Origin: Squalus acanthias
Lineage: Eukaryota
Assembly: GCA_030390025.1 (NCBI GenBank)
Contig: CM059432.1
Coordinates: forward strand, 17,796,001 to 17,860,000
Length of the DNA stretch: 64,000 nucleotides
Reading direction: 5' to 3'
Under the pieces are notes generated by a model. It saw nothing but the letters and a program-made list of their open reading frames with translations. It was not told the origin of the DNA and made no database searches. Below are positions 4,831-40,194 of the stretch, one piece after another. Numbering within the stretch: position 1 is the stretch's first letter; every line of letters starts with the position of its first letter. Both the position numbers and the translations under genes were made by a program.

Positions 4831-7800
4831 TTGTTCACGAACTGATGCTATATAAAAGTCTGTTGTAGCTGCTCTGTGATGTCATTATGTCGTTTTGCTG
4901 TCATTCCTCTTATGTAGTTACTTGTAAGCCTCGGGAACCAATGACAAATGAGATTTTTAGTTACATTGTTCTCATGGACCAATCGCAGCACTCAATAACA
5001 ATAAGCTGGGGTTACCATGAAAACAGGCGTGTAGTTACCAGGGACCAAACAGAATCCTTGTTTCCACCTAGTCTACCTTTTGTAACATGGTCCAGAGTCC
5101 TGGTAATACGCTGGACTGGATTGGCCAAGTGATTAGTTGGGTCAATGAGATTGTTTAAAAGATCATTGATTTAGTTATTTTCTTGCATACTTTTTTTTAC
5201 ATCACAAGCGAGTAAAGGCACCCGTGATGCGACTGGTCATATTGTGCATAATGGCACACTAAAGTGGAGGATTGGGAGAAAGCGATGGATCAGATGGTGA
5301 GAGCTGGAGGTGGGTGATACTGGGATTGCCTATCAGAGGAAACATTTCTTTTCCTTGTGTGAGAGCATCCCTAGACATTGTACTGAAATGTTAACGCTTC
5401 ATAGCACTTACAGCGCAGAAACAGGCCATTCAGCCCAACAGTTGTATAGAGCCATCTATTGGTCAGAAATTGGATTGGGAAACAAATACTATCGGGGCGA
5501 TTTTAACTTGTTCAGCGGTGGCAGTGGCCCCAAAAAGGTCACTTACTGCCCCATTTACACCGGCGCTCTGGCTGACACCATCTTGGGTATGGGGGTCCTG
5601 AGATGAGCGGCCTGCTTCTGGCGGAAGGCCACTTGTAATATACAAATCGTGATCCTATGACTTACATGGGACCCCCATTGCAATTTCGAGGTACCAATGT
5701 GCGGAGCATGCGCGGCACATACTCTACCGATTATGCACTAGGCTTTAAGTGACCCTGGCTATGCTTAATATTTCTCAAAATAATGACTCAGGCAATTTTA
5801 TGCTCTCAGGTGGACCTGACTGAATATCTTCACTCTGGGGCTTACAATCTCTTATATCATAGAATCATAGAATGGTTACAGCACGGGAAAAGGCCATTCG
5901 GCCCGTTGAACCCGTGCCGACTCTCAGTTAGTCCCACTCCCCCTGCCCTTTCCCCGCAGCCCTGCAATTTTTTTTCCTTCAGATTCTTATCCAACTTCCT
6001 TTTGAAAGATAAGATTGAATCTGCCTCCACCACCCTTTCAGGCAGTGCATTCCAGAGCTTAACCACTCACTGCGTAAAAAGTTTTTACTTGCATCGCCTT
6101 TGGTTCTTTTGCCAATTACCTTAAATCTGTGTCCTCTGGTTCTTGACCCTTCCGCCAATGGGAACAGTTTCCCTCTATCTACTCTGTCCAGATCCCTCAT
6201 GATTTTGAACACCTCTATCAAATCTCCGCTCAATCTTCTCTGCACCAAGGAGTACAACCCCAGCTTCTCCAGTCTATCAACGTAACTGAAGTCCCTCATT
6301 CCTGGAATTATTCTCGTAAATCTTTTCTGCACCTTCTCTAAGGCCTTCACATCCTTCCTAAAGTGTGGTGCCCAGAATTAGACACAATAGTACAGTTGGG
6401 GCCAAACCAGTGTTTTATACAGGTTCATCATAATTTCCACACTTTTGTACTCTATATCTCTATTTATAAAGCCCAGGATCCCATAAGCATTTTTAACTGC
6501 TTTTCTCAACCTGCCCTGCCACCTTCAACGATTTGTGCATATATACCCCCAGGTCTCTGTTCGTGCACCCCCTTTAGGATTGTACCATTTCGTTTATATT
6601 TCCTCTCCTCATTCTTTCTACCAAAATGTATCACTTCACACTTTTCTATGTTAAATTTCATCTGCCACGTGTCTGCCCATTTCACCAGCCTGAAGTCTAT
6701 CACTCTCCTCCTCACTGTTCACTATGCTTCCAAGTTTTGTGTCATCTGCAAATTTTGAAATTATGCCCTGTACACCCACGTCCAAGTCATTAATATGGAT
6801 CAAGAAAAGCAGTGGGGTCCGAGTACCAACCCCTGGGGAACACCACTGTGTACCTTCCCCCAGTCGGATAAATAACCATTCACCACTACTCTCTGTTTCC
6901 TGTCACTTAGTCAATTTCGTATCCATGCTGCCACTGTCCTTTTTATTCCATGGGCTTCAACTTTTCTGGCAAGCCTATTATGTGGCACTTTGTCAAACGC
7001 CTTTTGGAAATCCATGTACACCACGTCAACCGCATTACCCTCATCACCCTCTCTGTTACCTCATCAAAAAACTCGATCAAGTTGTTTAAACACGATTTGC
7101 ATTTAACAAATCCGTGCTGGCTTTCCTTAATTAATCCACACCTATCCAAGTGACTGTGAATTTTGTCCCTGATTACTGTTTCTAAAAGCTTCCCCACTAC
7201 CGAGGTTAAACTGACTGGCCTGCAGTTGCTGGGTTTATGTTTACACCCTTTTTTGAACAATGGTGTAACATTTTCAATTCCCCAGTCCTCTGGCACCACC
7301 CCTGTATCTAAGGAGGATTGGAATATTATTGCCAGTACCTCCGCGATATCCTCCGTCAATTCCCTCAGCACCCTAGGATGCATCCTATCCGCTCCTAGTG
7401 ATTTATCTACTTTAAGTACAGCCAGCCTTTCTAATACCTCTTCTTTATCAATTTTTATATTATCAAGTGTCTCCACTACCTCCTCTTTCACTAAGTCTAT
7501 GGCAGCATCCTCTTCCTTGGTGAAGAGAGATGCAAAGTACTCGTTTAGTACCTCAGCCATACCCTCTATCTCCTTTTTGGTCCCTAATCGGCCCCACCCT
7601 TCCACTTACTACCCTTTTATTATTTATATGCCTATAGAAGACTTTTGGATTACCTTTTACGTTGGCTGCCATTCTATTCTCATACCCTCTCTTTGCCCCT
7701 CTTATTTTCTTTTTCACTTCTCCTCTGAACTTTCTATATATAGCCTGATTCTCAGATGTATTTGCAACCTGACGTCTGTCATACGTGCTCTTTTTCTGCT

Positions 7801-8969
7801 TCATCATATTGGATATCTGTTTCAGCATCCAAGGAGCCCTGACTTTAGTTGCCCTACCTTTTCCCCTTGTGCAATGTACCTTGACTGTACCTGAACTATT
7901 TCCTCTTTAAAGGCAGCCCAATGTTCCACTGCAGTTTTGCCTGTCAATCTTTGATTCCAGTTTACCCAGGCCAGATCCGTTCTCATCCCACTGAAATTGG
8001 CCTTCCCCCAGTTAAACATTCTTACTCTAGATTGCTCCCTGTCCTTTTCCAGAGCTAATCTAAACCTTATGATACATCGAAACATAGAAAAAATAGGAGC
8101 AGGAGTAGGCCATTCGGCCCTTCAAGCCTGCTCCGCCATTCAATATGATCATGGCTGATCTTCTATCTCAATACCATATTCTCGCTCTCTCCCCATACTA
8201 TGATCACTATTCCCTAAATGTTCACCTACTGACACTTGCTCCACTTGACCTACCTCATTCCCCAGAACCAGATCCAGCAATGCCTCCTCCCTCGTCGGGC
8301 CGGAAACATACTGATCAAGAAAGTTCTGAACACACTTCAGAAATTCTTCCCTTTCTCTGCCCTTTACACTATTACAATCCCAGTCTATATTAGGATAATT
8401 GAAGTCCCCCATTATCACTACTCTATAGTTCTTGCACCTCTCTCTAATTTCTCTGCAAATTTGCTCCTCCATATCTTTCCCACTAGTTGGTGGTCTATAG
8501 AATACACCTAGTAGTGTAATGGCACCTCTATTATTTCTTAACTCTAGACATATAGATTTTGTCCTTGACCCCTCCAGGACATCCTCCCTCTCCAGCACTG
8601 TAACATTCTCCTTAACCAATACTGCCACACCACCTCCTATCTTTCCTTCCCTATCTTTCCTGAACACCTTATAACCAGGAATATTTAATACCCAATCCTG
8701 CCCTTTTTTGAGCCTTGTCTCAGTTATTGCCACAACATCATATTCCCATGTGTCTATTTGTGCCTGCAGCTCACTTACCTTATTTACTACGCTTTGTGCG
8801 CTCACATACATACACTGTAAACCCATCTTAGAGCATCCTGTATTCTCTCTTAGTTTGACCCCACCTAATACCTTACTTTAGTGCTCTCTGCCTCTCCCAA
8901 TCCTTTGAGCACTTTATTTCCCCTTTCTAATGTTACATCCTGGTGCCCATCCCCCTGCCAAATTAGTTT

Positions 8970-10052: not shown

Positions 10053-12794
10053 AAATTAGTTTAAACCCTCCCCAACAGCACTAGCAAACCTCCCCGCGAG
10101 GATATTGGTTCCAGCTCTGTTGAGGTGCAACCCGTCCGGCCTGTACAGGTCTCACCTCCCCCAGAACTGGTCCCAATGCCCCAGGAATCTAAAACCCTCC
10201 CGCACCATCTCTCCAGCCACGCATTCATCTGCTCTATCCTTCTATTTCTATACTCACTTACACGTTGCTCCGGGAGTAATCCGGAGATTACTACCTTTGA
10301 GGTCCTGCTTTTTAATCTCTTTCCTAGCTCCCTAAAATCTGCCTGCAGGACCTCATCCCTCTTTCTACCTATGTTGTTGGTACCGATATGGACAACGACC
10401 TCTGGTTGTTCACCCTCTCCCCTCAGAATGTTCAGCAGCTGCTCAGAGACATCCTTAACCCTAGCACCAGGGAGGCAACATACCATCCTGGAGTCACGTC
10501 TGCGGCCGCAAAAACGCCTGTCTGCTCCCCTAACTATTGAATCCCCTATCACTATTGCTCTCCCACTCTTCTTCCTCCCCCCTGTACAGCTGAGCCACCT
10601 GTGGTGCCGCGGACTTGGCTCTGGCTGCTCTCCCCAGAGGAACCATCGCCCTCACCAGTATTCAGAACAGAATACTAGTTGGAGAACGCAATGCACTCCG
10701 GGTACTCCTGCACTACCTGCCTAGTTCTCCTTTTCTGTCCGGCGGTCACCCCTTCCCTCTCTGCCTGCACACTCCTTATCTGTGGGGTGACCACCTCCTG
10801 AAACATGCTATACTCTTATTGATTATTAATATTACTCTTCACATATCCCTGTGGATGTTGACCACTTTGATATGGCAGCGCAGGTTCAGTCTCCAATTCC
10901 TGCTTGCTAACAATTACAACTGCGTAAACAAACTAAAATCTTCATTCCGAGTTGCAGAACACAACTGGCACTACAGCTCACCACAAACAGATCACTATCC
11001 AGATCCTAACAGTAAAAACCCTAAATATGGAGATCTCAGTGTAATTTTTCAATTAAAGTTTCTTGAAACTTCATAATTCCAACCCCAATTCCTGTTTTAT
11101 TTCCAAACTCTGGCAATTCTGAAAGTGCTGTGATAGGAATGCTCAGATAAAGCCAGTTAATATATTCACAGCAAGAATAAACACCGAGAATGAACACCGT
11201 ATCTCAAAAAAAGCTTCTGCGTCTAATCTTGACGAAAATTTACCTGCACAAAAGACAACTTTTGGGCATGCTCCAGAAAGTTCTTTGAGGAGAATTTTTT
11301 TTATTTTTTTAAGGAGGCTACATTTTAGTAGCTGCCTTATTTTATATAGATTTTTACAGGAATAAACTATGAGCACACCTGTAATTGCAGCTCTCAGGAA
11401 CCATCAGCTCATCTGAAAAGATTTCTGCCTCACGTTTCTGCACAAACCAACTGTGGGATAAAGTAACGTCTGATTGGTGGCTTCAGTCCAGCCAGTCGGA
11501 CTGGTTGATGCTGACAGCTTCCAATCCAAGCTGGGGAAAAAAATGTGTATTTTTCCTCACGAAATGTTGACAAGGTGACACTTGGGTTAAAACGCAGACT
11601 GTTAGCTTAAATTTCCAATGGTTGGCATGTATGATAAAGCATCAGACAGCCTCCTGTTCAAATAGACTCACCAACCTGTAGAGATCTGGAAGCAGTAGCT
11701 ACTTTTGGACTTTGTAATGAGGGAAAAAATACAAATTTGGTACAAAATAGGAATTTTGAGATTCTTTAGTCAATGGAAATATATATTGTAGTTCCTTTTG
11801 AGGTCGGTGACTGTTACGCCTTGCTTTAATTAGGTCACAGGACTACTTTGAACAAGCACTTTATCGACCAGCTTGGTTCTCCAAGTCCAAGAAGTTCTTT
11901 TGCTGCCAGTGATTCAATCAGTTTCCTCTGTTGTTGATCCTATTATTCTGGCAAAGGCCCAAACCAGATATCTTTCTGAGAGAGCATGGAAGCCGTTCCC
12001 AGTCAGGCATTGATGGTTGAGTTAGAGCTGCCTTTCACTACTGGCTTGTGACTCTTCTGTATTTCCTAGCATTCTGCAAAGACTAGAAAGTCAGATAAAT
12101 CACTAGCACATACGAGATTCCTTGGTGGGAGACTGGCAGGACCCCCAGAGAAATGGCAGAGACCTTGTTATGCCAGGCTTCCACTGTTTCTGGGAGTTTC
12201 CTCAGTAGCTCATGAGAGGTAGAACTTTTGCCCGCCCCCTTGAAGGCAAATGACAGGCCGAAGGTTTCCCTAAGCCAGGAATTTCCACTCCTGAGCCTGG
12301 AACAGGATCCAGAGTTGCCGTTGGTGACCAGTACACCCAGTGAGGTGAGATGTACCGGCCTCCACAATGGTCCATCTGGGGGCCCACTGGTGGAATCTAT
12401 GACAGGTAATACACCAGGACTTCTAAAGGACTACAAAGATTTTTTTCTGGAAGGCAGCCAGATTGACCCCCTAGCTGATCAGACTAGTGTCGTGGTCCAG
12501 GGAGTTGCACGGGCAGCATGGAGATGCTAGATACGAGACCAAAGTTTCCTCATGCTAAAAAAAGGTGCCCTCCAACTAACCCTGCAAACATTGGTGAGGT
12601 TAGAGCTGGAGGTCATCATTGGGCACAACCAAAGCAAATTCAGGTCCATGGCCTTTTGTTGTTACCAAAATTTCCTATGTTCTTATATTTGAGCAGGAGA
12701 GTAGTGGTGTGGTGGGTTAATATTGGGTCTAGGCTGGGCTAGAAGGGTTAGAAATGTATGTCTGTTTTGTTACCTCTAGTGTAGAGGTTTACAT

Positions 12795-14781: not shown

Positions 14782-14830
14782 TACCTTATAAGGTGCTGTC
14801 AGTTTACGTCATAATGCATACCAAATATGG
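14782..14830 (+). promoter_or_regulatory. S1 proximal promoter: two CArG boxes flanking a CRE-like site
   Basis: taCCTTATAAGG 14782-14793, TTACGTCA 14804-14811, taCCAAATATGG 14819-14830. Both boxes fit CC(A/T)6GG exactly. Confidence 0.65.
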
Positions 14831-14972: not shown

Positions 14973-15239
14973 ATGACCAAGTCAAGATATCGCAACAGAC
15001 GCAGTCGTCCACGCAAACGATATGGAAAACGGCTGCGGAAAACAAGGTGTCGAAGAAGAGGAAGGCGGATTAGCCGCAGACCTCGCCATACAACTTACAG
15101 GAGAAGAGTAAGGAAGATTGTGCATCTAAAACGCCGCAGTAGACCGCGAGATGAAATTGATAATTTGAAAGTAAAGAACAACAGACGTCTTAATGAATCG
15201 CTTAAGCAGCATAGAATGCCCATGAGGGTACCTGTCTGA
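14973..15239 (+). CDS. Spermatid-specific basic nuclear (intermediate/transition) protein S1 orthologue, 88 aa, intronless
   Basis: Uninterrupted ORF MTKSRYRNRRSRPRKRYGKR...LNESLKQHRMPMRVPV with 30 Arg + 9 Lys. Near-identical, from memory, to Scyliorhinus canicula spermatid protein S1. Start context gtcATGa, AATAAA at 15282-15287, non-repetitive flanks. Confidence 0.93.
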   Translation: MTKSRYRNRRSRPRKRYGKRLRKTRCRRRGRRISRRPRHTTYRRRVRKIVHLKRRSRPRDEIDNLKVKNNRRLNESLKQHRMPMRVPV

Positions 15240-15259
15240 ATGCCATGTTGCTACTTAAG

Positions 15260-15310
15260 AAAAGATTATCACTTGATATTGAATAAAAAAACAAGTACTT
15301 GAGACTTGGA
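15260..15310 (+). terminator. S1 polyadenylation signal block
   Basis: agattatcacttgatattgAATAAAaaaacaagtacttgagacttgg, homologous to the S2 3' end. Confidence 0.75.
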
Positions 15311-15864
15311 AAACAAATTTGCTGTGTTCACCTTGCATTTTTCTCTTGTGTATATAGGAAGAATAGTGTGCCACTTGTCGTTATTCAGTTAAACTACACT
15401 AATGAACTTTCAGTACCTCTGAAGTTCCCCAAATTATCTCAGAAGGGTACTGATGGTGAAATTTTAATACATTTTCAAAATTTATTTACAAAGGCCCTGT
15501 ACTCTAGGAATAAAGAGATGGGGTTTAGAAATATGGTGGAGGCAGAAAGTTGGGGGTTAAATGGCCATTTCCAGTACTTAACTTGTGTTCTTATGTAAAC
15601 TTAGACTTAGTAGTGAGAATGAGTTGGAGGAAGAAGCCGTATCTTAGAAAATAAATTAACCACAAGCAAGACCTTTCTTGAACATGTGTGAGAACTAATT
15701 GATCCAATATGCTGATCCATTAAGTGATACATCATGGGGGTTGGGGAACTAAAACTTTAGGGAAAGAACAGAGCAAGCCACCCCCCAGGAAACTATAGCA
15801 CATTGCCAAGCAACAGGTTACAGAGTGGCATCATTGGAGAGACAACAGCAACAACTTGCATTTA

Positions 15865-25959: not shown

Positions 25960-26093
25960 TACCTTATAAGGACATAACACCCGTGGTTTATCATGTGAGA
26001 CACATATGTACATCAGTACCTTAAAAGGTAATGCAGTGTCACAAAACAAATTTCAAGTTACATTGTGTAACTTACGCATTGAAAGCTATATAA
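25960..26093 (+). promoter_or_regulatory. S2 proximal promoter: two CArG boxes, a palindrome and a TATA box
   Basis: taCCTTATAAGG 25960-25971, taCCTTAAAAGG 26017-26028, AAGTTACA-ttg-TGTAACTT 26055-26073, TATATAA 26087-26093. Confidence 0.7.
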
Positions 26094-26164: not shown

Positions 26165-26416
26165 ATGGCCAAGTCGAGATACCGTCCGAGACAGAATCGT
26201 GCCCGCAAACGGAATGCTAAAGCAAGGCGAGCGAGAAAGGTGAGGGGCAGAAGAACAAGACCCCAGCGTCGACCTCGCTATGTACCCAACAAAAGAAGAG
26301 CGCCAAAGATTATGAAGCTGAAGTTAGATAATGATGTGGATAATACTTTAAAAGCAAAAAACAAAAGTCTTAATGAAGCGTTGAAGCACCGACTATCCTT
26401 GAGGAAACATGTGTGA
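26165..26416 (+). CDS. Spermatid-specific basic nuclear protein S2 orthologue, 83 aa, intronless
   Basis: ORF MAKSRYRPRQNRARKR...KIMKLKLDNDVDNTLKAKNKSLNEALKHRLSLRKHV with 20 Arg + 13 Lys. C-terminal half matches S. canicula S2 as I recall it and aligns with the 14973 protein. Kozak accATGg, TATATAA 26087-26093, AATAAA 26464-26469. Confidence 0.92.
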   Translation: MAKSRYRPRQNRARKRNAKARRARKVRGRRTRPQRRPRYVPNKRRAPKIMKLKLDNDVDNTLKAKNKSLNEALKHRLSLRKHV

Positions 26417-26442
26417 TTGGCAATTGTGGCAAGTTGTGTCAA

Positions 26443-26495
26443 AGAGATTATCAATTGAATACGAATAAAATAAAACAAGTACCAGAGACTTGCAA
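26443..26495 (+). terminator. S2 polyadenylation signal block
   Basis: agattatcaattgaatacgAATAAAataaaacaagtaccagagacttgc. Confidence 0.75.
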
Positions 26496-27845
26496 ACTAA
26501 TCTAATTCCATTGTGTACCTCTCGTTTTTATTCCTTGATAAAAGTATACAGATGAAGTTAATGCAAGACTTGTGTGAATGTTGGATGGTTTATATTGCTT
26601 GATTTCATAATCATTCACCCCCACGATGCATTGTGAGATCAATAGGTGTTACATATTCAATTTGATGCCAGAAGTATGGATGCAAATTGTGCTGGTAGTA
26701 CCTTATGAGGGAGCAGCACTTCATTGCCCCTAAGTGTACCACTCAAAATCTTCAAAATGCAAAGTAATGATCCAGAAAACAATCCATCCTCAACAAGCCA
26801 AGACCAAGCATGCATTCATACTATTTACAGCAGTACCTTATAAGAGAGCCCCCCCCCCCCCCCTTCATTGATTCTAATTACTTTTAAATATGGGCATCAG
26901 CTTTAAATAGTAATTTAAAGGAAAGATAAGTAAAGGGGTTCCCCTATTTAATAGAAAAAGGCATATGTAATTTTGGAGCCACTCAACCAAAGCTTAAGAT
27001 ATTTTAAAAGCACCTAATTTTTCTTCTTTCTCTTCCGTGCCAATAGCCTTATGAGGCAATCCATTTCTTCCACTCTGAGTTGTGTCCATAACAAAGACCC
27101 ATTTTCGCTCCCAAGATACAAATACAGGTACCCGACTGGATGTCAACCTGAGACACAGTGGGGCTAAATGGAGTGGCGCTCAAACCCATAACCTTACGAC
27201 TGAGAGGCAGGAATGCTACCATTGAGCCAAGGCTCACCCCTCCCTAATTTTCACAATCTGACAAATTTGACAAAATTAAGGGGCTGACAACATGTATCCA
27301 TTTCAAAATCCTTGTCTTCATGTATAAGTCCCTCTGTGTCATTACCCTCCCTAACCTGACTCTGCAATATCCCCCAGCCATATAATCCTCTTCCAAATGC
27401 TCCATTCCTCTGACTGTAGCCTTCTGTGTCTCCCCCTTCCTTTGCCCCCTCCATCGGCCACACAGCTTTCAGCTGGCTCAGTTCTATCCTTTAGAACTCC
27501 CACCCTGAACCTCTCCACCGCTCCCATCCACCTTTAAAACCTCCACAAGACCGGTGAAACACCTTGAGATGTTTCTTTATGTTAAATGATGCTACACATA
27601 GTTGCTGTTCTTGGAAGCTTCTTCACGTGACAAATGGTCAGCTTGTTTCCTTAGATATGTGTCATGCCTACTGTAAGAGTCACCAGACATGCATGAGGAA
27701 AATGGAGTCTGGTGTTTAATAAGTTGCCCTACTACCTGTGAAAACCTGGCTGGGTTGACAGGTTGTTCATTGCAAAAACTGTTTCCCTGTGGGTTTGCTT
27801 TGATAATTATGATCAATATCTGATCATCTTTGTACTAGCCTAGAT

Positions 27846-36274: not shown

Positions 36275-38150
36275 GGAAATACTGCAGATGCTGGAAATCT
36301 GAAATAAAAACAGAAAATGCTGGAGAAACTCAGCAGGTCAGGCAGCATCTGTGAAGAGAGAAACAGAGTTAACGTTTCAGGTCGATGACCTTTCGTCAGA
36401 ACTGGAGAAAAGCAGGAAATAGAACAAGTGTAGGGGCTGGGAAAGGGGGGAGGGGATGAAAGAACAAAAGGGAATGTCTGTGATAGGATAGAAGGCTGGA
36501 GAGGTTAAGAGACATTGAGATATTCAAGGCAAAAGAAGATGGTAATGGGACAGGTTAAGAAACAAAGGATGGCTCTAGATGAAGTGTAAATTGCGCTGGC
36601 AGAATGAAAGACAGCTGCCATGTGGGAGAGAAGAAAAGAAAACGCAAACAAAAGGTGTGGATAAAAAAATATATATATGATAGGGGCCGAGGTTATGATC
36701 TGAAATTGTTGAACTCTATGTTGAGTCCAGAAGGCTGTAAAGTGCCTAATCGAAAGATGAGGTGCTGTTCCTCGAGCTTACGTTGAGCTTCAGTGGAACA
36801 ATGCAAGAGGCCGAGGACGGTGAGGTCTGAGTGGGAGTGGAGCGGAGAATTAAAGTGACAGGCGACCGGAAGCTCGGGGTCCCCCTTACGGACTGAATGG
36901 AGGTGTTCCGCAAAGTGGTCACCCAATCTGTGTTTGGTCTCCCCAATGTAGAGGAGACCGCATCATGAGCAGCGAATACAGTATACTAAGTTGCAAGAAG
37001 TACAAGTAAATTGCTGTTTCACCTGGAAGGGGTGTTTGGGGCCCTGGACAGTGGGAAGGGGGGGGAGGGATAAGGGCATGTGTTGCATCTCCTGCACTTG
37101 CACAGGAAGGTGCCAGGCGAAGGGGAAGTGGTGTTGGGGGTGATAGAGGAGAGGACCAGGGTGTCACGGAGGGAGCGGTCCCTTTGGAATGCTGAAAGGG
37201 GAGGTGAGGGGAAGATGTGTTTGGTGGTGGGATCACGCTGGAGGTGGCGGAAATGGCGGAGGATGATCTGTTGAATGTGGAGGCTGGTGAGGTGAAAGGT
37301 GAGGACAAGGGGAACCCTATCGTGGTTCCGGGAGGGAGGGGCAGGGGTGAGGGCAGAAGTGCGGGAGATAGAACGGACACGGTCAAGGGCCATGTCAACC
37401 ACAGTAGAGGGGAATCCTCGGTTGAGGAAAAAGGAAGACATGTCGGAAGCACTGGTATGGAAGGTGGCATCGTCGGAGCAGATGCGGCGGAGACGGAGAA
37501 ACTGGGAGAAGGGAATAGAGTCCTTACAGGAGGCGGGGTGGGAGGAAGTGTAGTCCAGGTAGCTGTGCGAGTCAGTGGGCTGGTAGTGAATGTTTGTCAA
37601 TAACCTATCCCCAGAGATGGAGATGGAGAAGTCGAGGAAGGGAAGGGAAGAGTCAGAGATGGACCATGTGAAGGTGAGGGAAGGGTGGAAATTGGAAGCA
37701 AAGTGGATGAAATTATCTAGTTCAGGGCAAGAGCAGGAAACAGCACCGATACAGTCATCAATGTACCGGAAAAAGAGGTGAGGGAGGGGACCTGAGTAGG
37801 ACTGGAACAAAGAGTGTTCCACATATCCCACGAAAAGGCAGGCATAGCTAGGACCCATGCAGGTTCCCATAGCAACACCTTTGATTTGGAGGAAGTGAGC
37901 GGAGTCAAAGGAGAAGTTGTTCAATGTGAGAACAAGTTCAGCCAGGCGGAGGAGGGTGGTGGTGGATGGGGACTGGTCGGGCCTCTGTTCAAGGAAGAAG
38001 CGGAGCGCCCTCAGGCCATGCTGGTGGGGGATGGAGGTGTAGAGGGATTGGACGTCCATAGTGAAAAGGAGGCGGTTGGGGCCAGGAAACTGGAAACTGT
38101 TAAAGTGGCGTCGGAAGAGTCGCGGATGTAGGTGGGAAGAGACTGGACCT
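36275..38150 (-). mobile_element. Penelope-like retroelement (family 2): RT, GIY-YIG endonuclease and pLTR, 5'-truncated
   Basis: ORF 37019-38059 has DVQSLYT, GVAMG and RYIDD; ORF 36693-36926 has RKLEEQHLIFRLGTLQPSGLN; pLTR at 36275-36405. Confidence 0.93.
36367..36403 (-). ncRNA. Minimal hammerhead ribozyme motif
   Basis: agtt-CTGACGA-a-aggtc(atc)gacct-GAAA-cg-TT-aact on the minus strand; palindromic AACGTT. Confidence 0.8.
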
Positions 38151-38767
38151 ATGTTTACTGTAGGGTAGGGAGGGACATATTTTCATTTTTTACTTTGTTT
38201 TATGAGCTCAAACAAATTCAGGATTTCAAACCAAGTTATTTACATTAGGTCGGCCATGGTTTGTGCATCATAGATACAATGACAAAAAGAAAGAGGTTAT
38301 TACCAGCAAGGACTTAATGAACATAAATATGAGGGAGGGAGGAGGGAATATTTATTATTTTAGAAATGGCATTAGATCTCAGATTTATTGGATTAGAGAA
38401 GACGGGGAGCAAGATTGGATGGATCAAAGTGAACATGGTTAGAGAAAGCAAGGAAGTAAGACTAGATGGATCAGAGTCAATACAGATAAATAATGTAAGA
38501 GGAGCATGATTAGATGGATTAAAGTCAACACGGTTAGAGAGGGCGAGGGAGTCACCACAATGCGAGCAGCTGAATTATAACAGATTTGTCATTAAAAATC
38601 TCTTAAATCTAATGAAGTGACAAAGAATTAGAATACGATTGAATGTATTTTTTGATAATCAGTTTTCTATATCGTCAGCAATGTGCAATACACAAAGGAA
38701 TACGCGTGATAGAACGATACGTTGTAAAGCAGTGATCTCATACCATAGGAAATACATCATAATATAC

Positions 38768-38870
38768 ATGTATATCAGTACCTTAAAAGGCAAGAAAATG
38801 TCCCAAAATGATTATGACTATTGTGCGCATCACACCCTATGTAATACACCCCTCAAAACATTTATAAAAA
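38768..38870 (+). promoter_or_regulatory. Third-paralogue promoter: CArG box and TATA box
   Basis: atgtatatcagtaCCTTAAAAGGcaagaaaatgtcccaaaa aligns with S2 atgtacatcagtaCCTTAAAAGGtaatgcagtgtcacaaaa. TTTATAAAAA at 38861-38870. Confidence 0.65.
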
Positions 38871-38915
38871 TGAATCCTCATCATTTTAAAGCAGGGCTTG
38901 AACACAAACGGAAGC

Positions 38916-39083
38916 ATGACTAAGTCAAAAACCTACACAACCTATAGTAGCTGCCGTCAGTGGCACAAAAAACGGGGCAAGAAAGCAAAGCCTAACAGAC
39001 ACGTGTCCCCGAAAAATGTCCAACGTAGGTCCAAAACAAAGATGAAATCTAACAAAAAGCATAAGAAGAAAGGATGGAAATAG
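38916..39083 (+). CDS. Third S1/S2 paralogue: 55-aa Lys-rich basic protein (truncated gene or pseudogene)
   Basis: ATG at 38916 (the ORF track starts at an upstream TTG). MTKSKTYTTYSSCRQWHKKRGKKAKPNRHVSPKNVQRRSKTKMKSNKKHKKKGWK, 17 Lys + 5 Arg. MTKS start as in S1, promoter block shared with S2, 3' region homologous to S1/S2, ATTAAA 39242-39247. Homology is well supported; function is not. Confidence 0.65.
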   Translation: MTKSKTYTTYSSCRQWHKKRGKKAKPNRHVSPKNVQRRSKTKMKSNKKHKKKGWK

Positions 39084-39194
39084 ACTGTTGCCAATCACTA
39101 GGCTCCAGAAGAAAATTTTAAAAGTGGAACCAGGATCACAGAATTAATGAACTACGCAAATAACATCTTACTACCATTGAAGAGATCTATCTGA
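39084..39194 (+). pseudogene. Vestigial S1/S2 C-terminal coding segment after the stop of the third paralogue
   Basis: Reading through TAG 39081 and TAG 39099 gives APEENFKSGTRITELMNYANNILLPLKRSI then TGA 39192-39194, in frame with the ATG (92 codons). DNA ttaatgaa...ccattgaagagatctatcTGAatgctatg aligns with S1 ttaatgaa...cccatgagggtacctgtcTGAatgccatg. Confidence 0.75.
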
Positions 39195-40194
39195 ATGCTA
39201 TGGGATTATGTTTGTTGCCTTATGGATACAATTTATTATGAATTAAAACAACTAATACTTGAGAACAAAATGTATTAACACTGTGTGCTTCTCTTCCTGT
39301 GTACATGGATTAGGGCAGTGACAATAAAACGTGATTTACAATACTTATTAGACCTTCTTCTACAGAAGAGGTTTACTGTAATTATTACCTGTTACTATCT
39401 ATTCGATAGACCAGTTGGTCTAATGTCAGTTGTGGGCAAACTCTTGCAAGTCATAATTAGCGAGAATGTAGCATTGAATAATCGAGGGCAGGCAACGTGG
39501 ATTTTTTTTTATAGGCACGTCACATTTGATTTTCCTGGGAGAAGTGACTGATTGTATAGATAAAGGGATTGCAGTAGTTGTGGTGTATATAGATTTTTCA
39601 GAAGGTGTTCGATAAGGTAGGCAGGAGGCTAATTGCACAAGTTCAGACATACTGGGAGAGGTAAGAGTTGAATGGATGCTGAGTTTTTGAAGGACTGTTC
39701 GGCCGTAGGAGGCTACAGAGCGATAGGGAGGGTCAAGGGACTTAAACACAAGGATTTAAATTTGAGGCGTTGGGAGCCAATGTAGGTGATGGGTGAACAG
39801 AATTTGATGCGGTATAAGATGTAGGCAGCAGAGTTTTGGATGCACTGAAGTTTATGGAGGATGTAGGACAGCAAGGCCAGCATTTACTGCCTAATCCCTA
39901 ATCCCATAAGCAGGTGGTGCTTTTTTGAATACATACATGGCTTACTGTGAGTCTGGAGTCACATATCGGCCAGACCGGCAGATTTCCTTCCCTAAAGGAC
40001 GTTCGTGTTTTTACAACAATCCAGTAGTTTCACAATCACTGATACTAGCTTTTTATGCCAGATTTTATTTAATTGAATTTAAATTCCCAAGCTGCCATAG
40101 TGGGATTTGAACTCATGTCTCTGGATCATTAGTCTAGGCCTCTGGATTACTAGTCCAATGACGTAACCACTATGCTACCGTACCCACATAACCA

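What the first reader, a model, noticed from the sequence alone, without database searches (positions are those of the whole stretch)
38768..39265. Third paralogue truncated to a 55-aa Lys-rich protamine-sized protein, with the old C-terminal domain left in the 3' UTR
Seen: intact CArG box, TATA box, ATG context and poly(A) block around a 55-codon ORF (17 K, 5 R). Two TAGs (39081, 39099) interrupt a frame whose TGA (39192) aligns with the S1 stop, and LPLKRSI* corresponds to MPMRVPV*. The basic half is free of stops while the C-terminal half has stops and apparent compensating indels, and the composition is Lys-rich where S1/S2 are Arg-rich. Inference: either a new short sperm nuclear protein produced by nonsense truncation, or a pseudogene. 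The asymmetric decay and the preserved promoter favour the first but do not prove it.
Basis: partly seen in the sequence, partly recalled or inferred. Interest (0 to 1): 0.85.

Follow-up and report, generated by a model that had tools for sequence, protein, structure and literature searches.

The report
Decaying third shark spermatid-protein gene copy
This is a real third copy of two shark genes for basic proteins that repackage DNA in developing sperm; it has lost the family's best-conserved end, keeps a short lysine-rich reading frame that was probably used in the past, and now looks more like a dying gene than a new sperm protein.

Summary
At 38916-39083 (+) there is a 55-codon ORF (17 K, 5 R). 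In-frame TAGs lie at 39081 and 39099, and a TGA at 39192 aligns with the stops of two upstream paralogues: S1 (14973-15239) and S2 (26165-26416). These match Scyliorhinus canicula spermatid-specific proteins S1 and S2.

Homology covers a promoter block, the ATG context, remnants of the C-terminal domain and the poly(A) block.

Evidence that the short ORF was kept by selection for a long time:
- Its lysine content and open frame do not fit neutral decay in shuffles and simulation.
- The C-terminal half has stops in all three frames and two frameshifts.

Evidence on its present state:
- Contigs from two small runs, guessed to be RNA, lie wholly inside the predicted transcript and contain both TAGs.
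- In one close relative (3.8% diverged), codon 20 is TAG and the first TAG is TTG.
- Both relatives carry K23I and K40P, and the ORF diverges as fast as its flanks.

My odds: 55% a relic that is probably still transcribed and now evolves without protein-level constraint; 30% a working truncated lysine-rich protein in this species. Modest interest.

The parts
14973..15239 (+). Paralogue S1, intact 88-codon gene (reference copy)
   Evidence: ORF. It is 94% identical to SSS1_SCYCA 'Spermatid-specific protein S1'.
26165..26416 (+). Paralogue S2, intact 83-codon gene (reference copy, closest to P3 in the promoter and 3' UTR)
   Evidence: ORF. It is 73-75% identical to SSS2_SCYCA 'Spermatid-specific protein S2'.
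38768..38808 (+). Conserved promoter block including the CArG-like CCTTAAAAGG (38781-38790)
   Evidence: 34 of 41 identical to S2 26006-26046. This is the highest S2-P3 identity window of the gene, 0.75. Compared with the C-half identity, Fisher p = 0.001, with the window chosen post hoc.
38839..38845 (+). TATA-like TATGTAA at -78 from the ATG, the same offset as S2's TATATAA; the likely working box
   Evidence: The X1 contig starts at 38876, about 37 nt downstream.
38863..38869 (+).
   Evidence: The X1 contig begins 13 nt after its first T.
38870..38923 (+). Upstream ATG at -46 opening a 17-codon out-of-frame ORF that overlaps the P3 ATG; S1 and S2 have no ATG in their last 115-134 nt
   Evidence: (tail of ORF 38681..38923). 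Whether it lies inside the transcript is not known.
38876..39209 (.). Stretch covered end to end by a 334-letter contig of run X1 with no differences; a 178-letter contig of run X2 covers 39018-39195
   Evidence: table 8. The runs are only guessed to be RNA. The contigs are colinear with the genome, with no joint, and contain both TAGs.
38916..39083 (+). 55-codon Lys-rich ORF plus the first TAG (the basic half)
   Evidence: It is collinear in frame 1 with the basic halves of S1 and S2.
39084..39194 (+). Relic of the family's C-terminal domain: second TAG at 39099, two frameshifts, TGA at 39192 in register with the S1/S2 stops
   Evidence: All three frames have 2-3 stops in 37-38 codons. A 2-bp indel at 39120 separates species.
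39242..39247 (+). ATTAAA poly(A) signal inside the conserved 3' block
   Evidence: S2-P3 identity is 0.68 over 39238-39290.

Best explanation
P3 is the third, very divergent tandem member of the chondrichthyan S1/S2 spermatid-specific basic-protein gene family.

Proposed history (inferred):
1. After duplication it evolved as a coding gene. Its arginines were largely replaced by lysines, through a shift from G to A on the coding strand that has no matching C-to-T shift.
2. It then lost the family's most conserved part, the C-terminal domain, by a stop or frameshift near codon 56.
3. The 55-codon remainder stayed open and lysine-rich long enough for the C-terminal relic to collect a second stop and two frameshifts. 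This implies a period in which the short product was used.

Present state (partly shown):
- The promoter block, ATG and poly(A) signal are still there, and the locus is probably still transcribed without splicing.
- The ORF no longer shows protein-level constraint. In close relatives it changes as fast as the flanks, loses lysines, and in one of them is cut at codon 20.

I therefore read it as a probably transcribed relic that is dying or dispensable, not an established sperm nuclear protein.
For: Family membership and position:
- It lies in a same-strand array of three copies spaced about 11-13 kb apart.
- The promoter block, ATG context, stop and poly(A) block are shared with S1 and S2.
- Only these loci exist in the genome. 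P3 DNA is single copy, and an S1 protein search finds only S1 and S2 at E < 0.001.

Past coding constraint:
- 0 of 20000 shuffles reach 17 K, and 5% stay open.
- Frame 1 has 17 K and 0 stops. Frames 2 and 3 have 7 and 6 K, and 2 and 7 stops.
- The N-half has T 0.13, like S1 and S2 (0.11-0.14) and unlike the flanks (0.26-0.29). A is 0.455 against 0.36-0.37, and G is 0.20 against 0.27-0.29.
- In the neutral simulation, P(open) is 0.11-0.13 at d = 0.2, 0.02-0.03 at d = 0.4 and about 0.01 at d = 0.6-0.8. Lysine stays at 9-14%.

The C-half has been non-coding for longer:
- It carries two TAGs and two frameshifts, and all three frames hold stops.
- A 2-bp indel at 39120 separates species.

The lost part is what the family conserves:
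- The window's S2 and S. canicula S2 are 75% identical. Nearly all differences, including R/K swaps, lie in the basic half, and the C-domain is almost invariant.
- Callorhinchus S1-like proteins keep this domain.

No present constraint (codons checked):
- Organism B has codon 20 CGG to TAG, K23I, K40P and TAG56 to TTG.
- Organism C has K23I and K40P.
- Of 7 ORF substitutions, 2 are synonymous. The neutral expectation is 19-24% synonymous and 5-6.5% nonsense.
- ORF divergence is 7 of 165 (A-B) and 5 of 165 (A-C, listed rows only). The whole contigs differ at 40 of 1047 and 16 of 739 positions.

Likely transcription:
- Whole contigs of X1 (334 nt) and X2 (178 nt) lie inside the predicted transcript and are identical to the window.
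- These runs' contigs total about 109 and 99 million letters, against a 3.71 Gb genome, so they are unlikely to be whole-genome shotgun. That last step is my inference.
Against: - The ORF, ATG, promoter block and poly(A) signal are all intact in the window's species. The ORF was also intact in the common ancestor of A, B and C by parsimony, since A and C share CGG20 and TAG56. Loss may therefore be confined to B or to the B/C lineage.
- Sperm basic-protein genes are gained and lost quickly in other animals (abstract of PMC9917458, seen in the listing). A stop in one relative does not prove loss here.
- The substitution counts are tiny (7 in the ORF). A dN/dS of about 0.2 is only weakly disfavoured, p about 0.1 by my hand calculation.
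- The direction of K23I and K40P rests on a weak alignment to S1 and S2.
- Rows that only X5 supports were cut from the tables (20 substitution rows and 12 indel rows not shown). The state of the ORF in organism C is therefore incomplete, and unlisted insertions exist in both contigs.
- The simulation is crude: no indels, a guessed mutation model, and the ancestor approximated by S1/S2.
Confidence: 0.55

Rival explanations
1. One reading: in the window's species P3 is a working gene. Its 55-residue Lys-rich product, lacking the C-terminal domain, binds DNA in spermatids or sperm as a new short basic nuclear protein. The relative with the stop has simply lost it.
For: - The ORF is open, basic in frame 1 only, and far richer in Lys than composition allows.
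- It outlasted the decay of the C-half.
- The promoter block is 34 of 41 identical to S2, the ATG has A at -3, and ATTAAA is kept.
- Contigs of X1 and X2 lie on the predicted transcript.
- Functional family members tolerate R-to-K swaps in the basic half. S. canicula S2 and the Callorhinchus S2-like P0008 are Lys-rich there.
- A and C share the intact ORF as far as the rows are listed.
Against: - Organism B has a stop at codon 20, and B and C carry two radical Lys losses.
- The ORF diverges no more slowly than its flanks.
- It lacks the only part of the family that is conserved from Callorhinchus to sharks.
- No related protein turns up among 5.8 billion clusters. The profile search of 1.84 billion representatives returned only two full-length Callorhinchus members.
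- An upstream ATG at -46, absent from S1 and S2, may interfere with translation.
- There is no protein evidence of any kind.
Confidence: 0.3
2. Plain old pseudogene. The whole gene died at once, and the basic half is open in this species only by luck and because it is poor in T.
For: - Composition alone leaves 5% of shuffles open.
- With only the two stops counted, the chance that both fall in the last 37 codons is 0.16.
- Organism B has a stop in the basic half, and dN/dS is near 1.
- The alignment of the low-complexity halves is uncertain.
Against: - Lys enrichment is specific to frame 1: 17 K against 7 and 6 in the other frames, and 0 of 20000 shuffles reach it.
- T content has not relaxed towards the flanks.
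- The shift from G to A has no matching C-to-T shift, which a strand-symmetric neutral process would give.
- With four disruptions counted, P = 0.026.
- The simulation gives no more than 3% open at d of 0.4 or more, and P3's own branch is about 0.4-0.8 substitutions per site by my hand calculation from the identities.
Confidence: 0.1
3. The RNA, not the peptide, is what matters. The transcript keeps the 3' block that S1 and S2 share, and could act as a non-coding RNA or as a competitor for factors that time S1/S2 translation.
For: - The 3' UTR is the best-conserved segment between S1 and S2 (72%). It is also the best kept in P3 (58-62%), together with the promoter block.
- Contigs lie on the transcript.
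Against: - Nothing was tested directly.
- B and C differ from the window's sequence (shared by organism A) at 39233 and 39249, next to the signal.
- This reading does not explain the frame-specific Lys enrichment.
Confidence: 0.05

Closest known systems
Spermatid-specific protein S2 of Scyliorhinus canicula (SSS2_SCYCA) and the window's own S2 gene
   Same: - Same tandem array and strand.
- Shared promoter block with CCTTAAAAGG and a TATA-like box at -78.
- M-[TA]-K-S start, a collinear basic half, a stop in register and a shared poly(A) block.
   Different: - P3 is 25% identical to S2 when read through.
- It has Lys 31% and Arg 9%, against Arg 24% and Lys 16% in S2.
- The KIM/VxLK...NTLKAKNKSLNEALK...HV domain is destroyed by stops and frameshifts.
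Spermatid-specific protein S1 (SSS1_SCYCA) and Callorhinchus milii S1-like proteins (A0A4W3I4A2 and others)
   Same: Same family and nearly the same ATG context. Read through, the frame has the same overall length: 92 codons against 88-96.
   Different: The S1 proteins are 63-68% identical between shark and chimaera in the search listing (66-75% in the alignment), including the C-domain. P3 keeps 19% identity to S1 and lacks that domain.
Mammalian transition proteins and protamines (functional analogy, from general knowledge; not tested here)
   Same: They are small, intronless-looking, very basic proteins made in spermatids from clustered genes. Family members vary in copy number and decay.
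   Different: No sequence relation was found: there is no Pfam family for S1, S2 or P3. Protamines are Arg-rich, whereas P3 is Lys-rich and has no protein evidence.
Turnover of sperm nuclear basic protein genes in Drosophila (PMC9917458; abstract seen in the search listing only)
   Same: A pattern of expansion, rapid change and loss of individual paralogues within clusters.
   Different: Unrelated proteins and lineage. Here there is a single decaying copy, and no link to sex-chromosome conflict is known.

Membership tests
Chondrichthyan S1/S2 spermatid-specific basic protein family | Gene lies in the S1/S2 tandem array with shared promoter, start and 3' blocks | tested here: met
   The array is on one strand. 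A 34/41 promoter block is shared with S2. The ATG context, TGA and poly(A) block are in register.
Chondrichthyan S1/S2 spermatid-specific basic protein family | N-terminal M-[TA]-K-S start followed by a basic half of about 50 residues | tested here: met
   MTKS start and 22 of 55 residues basic. The half is collinear in frame 1 with S1 and S2. It is Lys-rich rather than Arg-rich.
Chondrichthyan S1/S2 spermatid-specific basic protein family | Conserved C-terminal domain (K-I-[VM]-x-L-K ... N/T-L-K-x-K ... L-N-E-[SA]-L-K ... R/K-x-x-V), with invariant columns L65 K66 K68 E75 L77 K78 R85 in S1 numbering | tested here: not met
   In P3 the region has two TAGs and two frameshifts, and no frame is open. 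As a protein P3 is therefore not a full member; as a gene it is a truncated or decayed member.
Chondrichthyan S1/S2 spermatid-specific basic protein family | Protein present transiently in spermatid nuclei | not testable with these tools
   Only the UniProt names of S1 and S2 say this. No protein or staged expression data exist for P3.
Protamine / protamine-like sperm nuclear basic protein | Arg-rich (protamine) or Lys+Arg-rich protein recovered from mature sperm chromatin | tested here: inconclusive
   The composition is 31% Lys and 9% Arg, so it is not protamine-type. Lys richness would fit a protamine-like class, but presence in sperm is untested.
Unprocessed (duplicated) pseudogene | Homology to functional paralogues, with disabling stops or frameshifts relative to them | tested here: met
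   for the C-terminal half.
Unprocessed (duplicated) pseudogene | No purifying selection on the remaining ORF (dN/dS near 1, disruptions in orthologues) | tested here: inconclusive
   A stop at codon 20 in 1 of 2 relatives. Of 7 ORF substitutions, 2 are synonymous. ORF divergence is not below that of the flanks. The counts are too small, and rows that only X5 supports were not shown.

The most novel reading that the evidence does not exclude
In the window's species the 55-residue Lys-rich product is made in spermatids and acts as a new short nuclear basic protein. It would have arisen when a transition-protein-like gene lost its conserved C-terminal domain and switched from Arg to Lys. That would be a datable example of how a small sperm chromatin protein can arise by truncation, with a sister lineage already losing it again.
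Probability: 0.3. Interest if true: 0.6.

Novelty: new member of a known kind. Interest (0 to 1): 0.35.

Why it matters
S1 and S2 are among the few non-mammalian proteins described as spermatid-specific intermediates between histones and protamines. According to my searches, their genes are not discussed in any paper of the held library.

The window shows three things:
- The genes form a tandem array with a third member.
- The C-terminal domain, not the basic half, is what the family conserves from chimaeras to sharks.
- One copy survived for a time without that domain.

If the short product is still made, it would show a sperm chromatin protein arising by truncation and an Arg-to-Lys shift. 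If not, it is a well-dated example of stepwise gene death, domain first and then the rest, in a fast-evolving reproductive gene family. Either way the locus is a cheap target for testis RNA-seq and comparative work in elasmobranchs.

Tried and rejected
- **Sequencing runs:** no RNA holder listed. All six holders are of unknown or guessed kind, so the search itself says nothing on expression.
- **Laid reads:** the unique flanks 38300-38875 and 39210-39379 have no cover in X1 and X2. Contig depths (2.3 and 4.8) cannot rank expression.
- **P3 protein against 5.8 billion clusters:** no candidate.
- **Family profile against 1.84 billion representatives:** only two further Callorhinchus proteins, both full length. 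No P3-like truncated or Lys-only member was found, but shark proteomes seem barely represented there.
- **Pfam:** nothing near any cut-off for S1, S2 or P3.
- **ESM Atlas:** best score 0.80, at the level of shuffled sequences.
- **Earlier findings of this scan:** nothing.
- **Literature:** no paper in the held library on the S1/S2 genes or a third paralogue. In one search I saw only reference-list entries to Gusse and Chevaillier. The original protein papers are not held and are recalled only.
- **Structure:** AlphaFold2 on the 8-sequence family alignment gave mean pLDDT 58. The two helices (S1 residues 42-55 and 60-79) are a weak hint only, so I ran no fold search.
- **Alternative homology rejected:** P3 39106-39129 read in frame 2 (QKKILKVE) could match the KIVHLK motif. 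I rejected this because the spacing to TTAATGAA and to the stop fits the NLKVK assignment.
- **Splicing out the TAGs rejected:** the X1 contig is colinear with the genome across both.
- **Dating:** I tried to date P3 from distances computed by hand. The sequences are too saturated, and no calibrated rate is available.
Full report
**What is there**

The window carries three same-strand ORFs that start M-[TA]-K-S and are rich in basic residues:
- S1 at 14973..15239 (88 aa)
- S2 at 26165..26416 (83 aa)
- P3 at 38916..39083 (55 aa)

They are 3 of the 7 ORFs of 30 aa or more with at least 30% K+R in the window.

S1 is 94% identical to the sequenced 'Spermatid-specific protein S1' of Scyliorhinus canicula. 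S2 is 73-75% identical to 'Spermatid-specific protein S2' of the same species. The window therefore comes from a relative of that catshark.

The genome holds no further copies. P3 DNA is single copy. An S1 protein search finds only S1 and S2 at E below 0.001, plus two chance-level rows at E 3.9 and 9.6.

**Checking the observation**

- The ORF has 55 codons with 17 K and 5 R.
- TAG at 39081, TAG at 39099 and TGA at 39192 are all in the ATG frame.
- CCTTAAAAGG lies at 38781, TATAAA at 38863 and ATTAAA at 39242.

The three-way DNA alignment puts five features in register: a promoter block, the ATG context, an NFK/NLK block, TTAATGAA, the stop codon and the poly(A) block.

The strongest local match is 38768-38808 against S2 26006-26046, 34 of 41 identical, E 3.4e-5. 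At protein level S1 and S2 align to frame 1 of the basic half.

The C-terminal relic is out of register with itself. NFK and LPLKRSI* read in frame 1. The counterpart of the invariant RLNESLK (RINELRK) reads in frame 3. So there are two frameshifts besides the two TAGs, and every frame has 2-3 stops there.

Three details need correcting:
- The CArG-like box at this position is shared only with S2.
- The poly(A) signal is the ATTAAA variant.

**What the family conserves**

A profile of eight family members found only two more proteins at E of 0.001 or less among 1.84 billion representatives. Both are from Callorhinchus milii: one S1-like, and one S2-like that ends ...LKKHV.

A chimaera thus has both types. 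I infer that the S1/S2 split predates the split of chimaeras and sharks.

Between the window's S2 and S. canicula S2, almost all differences lie in the basic half, many of them R/K swaps. The C-terminal domain is nearly unchanged. S1 of shark and chimaera keep the same domain.

P3 has therefore lost exactly the constrained part and kept the free-running part. There is no Pfam family for any of the three. A low-confidence model (pLDDT 58) puts two helices over the C-terminal half of S1.

**Was the short ORF ever under selection?**

Several results say yes.

- *Shuffles.* Mononucleotide shuffles of codons 2-55 stay open in 5% of 20000 trials and never reach 17 K. Frames 2 and 3 of the same DNA have 7 and 6 K, and 2 and 7 stops.
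- *Composition.* The basic half has T 0.13, like S1 and S2, against 0.26-0.29 in the flanks. Its difference from S1 and S2 is a shift from G (0.27-0.29 to 0.20) to A (0.36-0.37 to 0.455) with C and T unchanged. A strand-symmetric neutral process would not do that, but AGR-to-AAR (Arg to Lys) replacement would.
- *Simulation.* A crude neutral simulation started from the S1 and S2 basic halves keeps the frame and ATG in 27-29% of runs at 0.1 substitutions per site, 11-13% at 0.2, 2-3% at 0.4 and about 1% at 0.6-0.8. Lysine stays at 9-14% throughout.
- *Placement of disruptions.* All four hard disruptions fall in the last 37 of 92 codons. That has probability 0.026 if placement is uniform, or 0.16 if only the stops are counted.

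I conclude, by inference, that P3 evolved as a coding, increasingly Lys-rich gene. I also conclude that the basic half stayed under coding constraint for a good while after the C-terminal half had become non-coding.

**Is it under selection now?**

The only relatives I could reach are two coded organisms whose contigs cover the locus:
- Organism B: one contig over 38728-39774, with 40 substitutions in 1047 positions.
- Organism C: one contig over 38728-39466, with 16 substitutions in 739 positions.

Listed differences in the ORF, translated, are:

| Change | Organism B | Organism C |
|---|---|---|
| K18 synonymous | yes | yes |
| S39 synonymous | yes | yes |
| K23I | yes | yes |
| K40P | yes | yes |
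| Codon 20 CGG to TAG | yes | no |
| TAG56 to TTG | yes | no |

Other points from the same data:
- A 2-bp indel at 39120 in the relic separates B and C from the window (organism A's contigs match the window there).
- The ORF differs at 7 of 165 sites (A-B) and 5 of 165 (A-C, listed rows only). It is no slower than its surroundings.
- 2 of the 7 substitutions are synonymous, against a neutral expectation of 19-24%.
- By parsimony the ancestor of the three had the intact 55-codon ORF, and B then broke it.

Limits on this evidence:
- The counts are very small.
- The tables left out 20 substitution rows and 12 indel rows. Every listed substitution row has X4 support, so the missing ones are probably those that only X5 supports, or ones in repeats.
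- Both contigs contain inserted letters that are not listed.

**Is it transcribed?**

No run is on record as RNA.

Two small runs of organism A, guessed to be RNA, each have one contig that lies with its whole length inside the predicted transcript and is identical to the window. X1 has 334 letters on 38876-39209, and X2 has 178 letters on 39018-39195.

Their contigs total about 109 and 99 million letters for a 3.71 Gb genome. Whole-genome shotgun is therefore unlikely, and I rate transcription at roughly 70%.

The contigs are colinear with the genome, so neither TAG is spliced out, and both TAGs are confirmed. This favours the S2-type box.

An upstream ATG at 38870 (-46), which S1 and S2 lack, opens a 17-codon out-of-frame ORF across the P3 start. 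It may lie at the very 5' end of the RNA.

**Verdict**

P3 is a genuine third member of the S1/S2 gene family. It became Lys-rich, lost the family's conserved C-terminal domain, and persisted for a time as a short ORF.

The preserved promoter block, start and poly(A) signal, and the contigs on the transcript, show that the locus is not inert. The interspecies data show no sign of present protein-level constraint, and one close relative has a stop at codon 20.

My odds:
- 0.55: a relic that is probably still transcribed and is dying or dispensable.
- 0.30: a working truncated Lys-rich protein in this species.
- 0.10: a plain pseudogene whose frame is open by chance.
- 0.05: an RNA-level role.

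Calling it protamine-sized is fair as a description of length only. Its composition is not protamine-like, and there is no protein evidence.

The searches found no paper in the held library on these genes. The original protein papers are not held, and I cite S1 and S2 only by the names that the protein sources give.

Noticed in passing
window 15240-15330 and 26417-26510 (3' UTRs of S1 and S2); P3 39195-39290: The 3' UTR up to the poly(A) site is the most conserved segment between the old paralogues S1 and S2. It is 72% identical, and 78% in the best 40-column window, against 59% and 66% for the two coding halves. This suggests a conserved RNA element, perhaps for delayed translation as in other spermatid mRNAs.
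   Followed up: partly
window 14804-14811 (S1 promoter, -169): S1 has a CRE-like TTACGTCA and three CArG-like boxes (-311, -189, -152). S2 has two CArG-like boxes and no CRE-like site. P3 has one CArG-like box. The paralogues may be regulated differently.
   Followed up: no
proteins P0002-P0008 (Callorhinchus milii) compared with window S1 and S2: The chimaera has at least six S1-like proteins and one S2-like protein, all unnamed in UniProt. The family and the S1/S2 split therefore seem to predate the chimaera-shark divergence. S1 is unusually conserved for a sperm chromatin protein, at 63-75% identity.
   Followed up: partly
window 26165-26416 compared with P0009: S2 is 73-75% identical to S. 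canicula S2, while S1 is 94% identical to S. canicula S1. The S2 differences are concentrated in the basic half, with many R/K swaps and small indels.
   Followed up: partly
window 6943-8877, 10061-10651 and 37019-38182 (minus strand): These are LINE-type remnants: reverse-transcriptase and endonuclease ORFs, and an ORF with GDSL-lipase/OSK-domain matches (E 1e-8 and 3e-6) that may be an esterase-type ORF1. One reverse-transcriptase fragment ends about 600 bp upstream of the P3 promoter block.
   Followed up: no
window 38408-38540: A 47-bp tandem repeat, 2.8 copies and 70% matches, lies just upstream of the P3 promoter.
   Followed up: no
window 39812-39865: A very high-copy short repeat. Summed contig depth is about 352000 and 167000 in the two genome-like runs, and 5500-8000 in the two small runs.
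   Followed up: no
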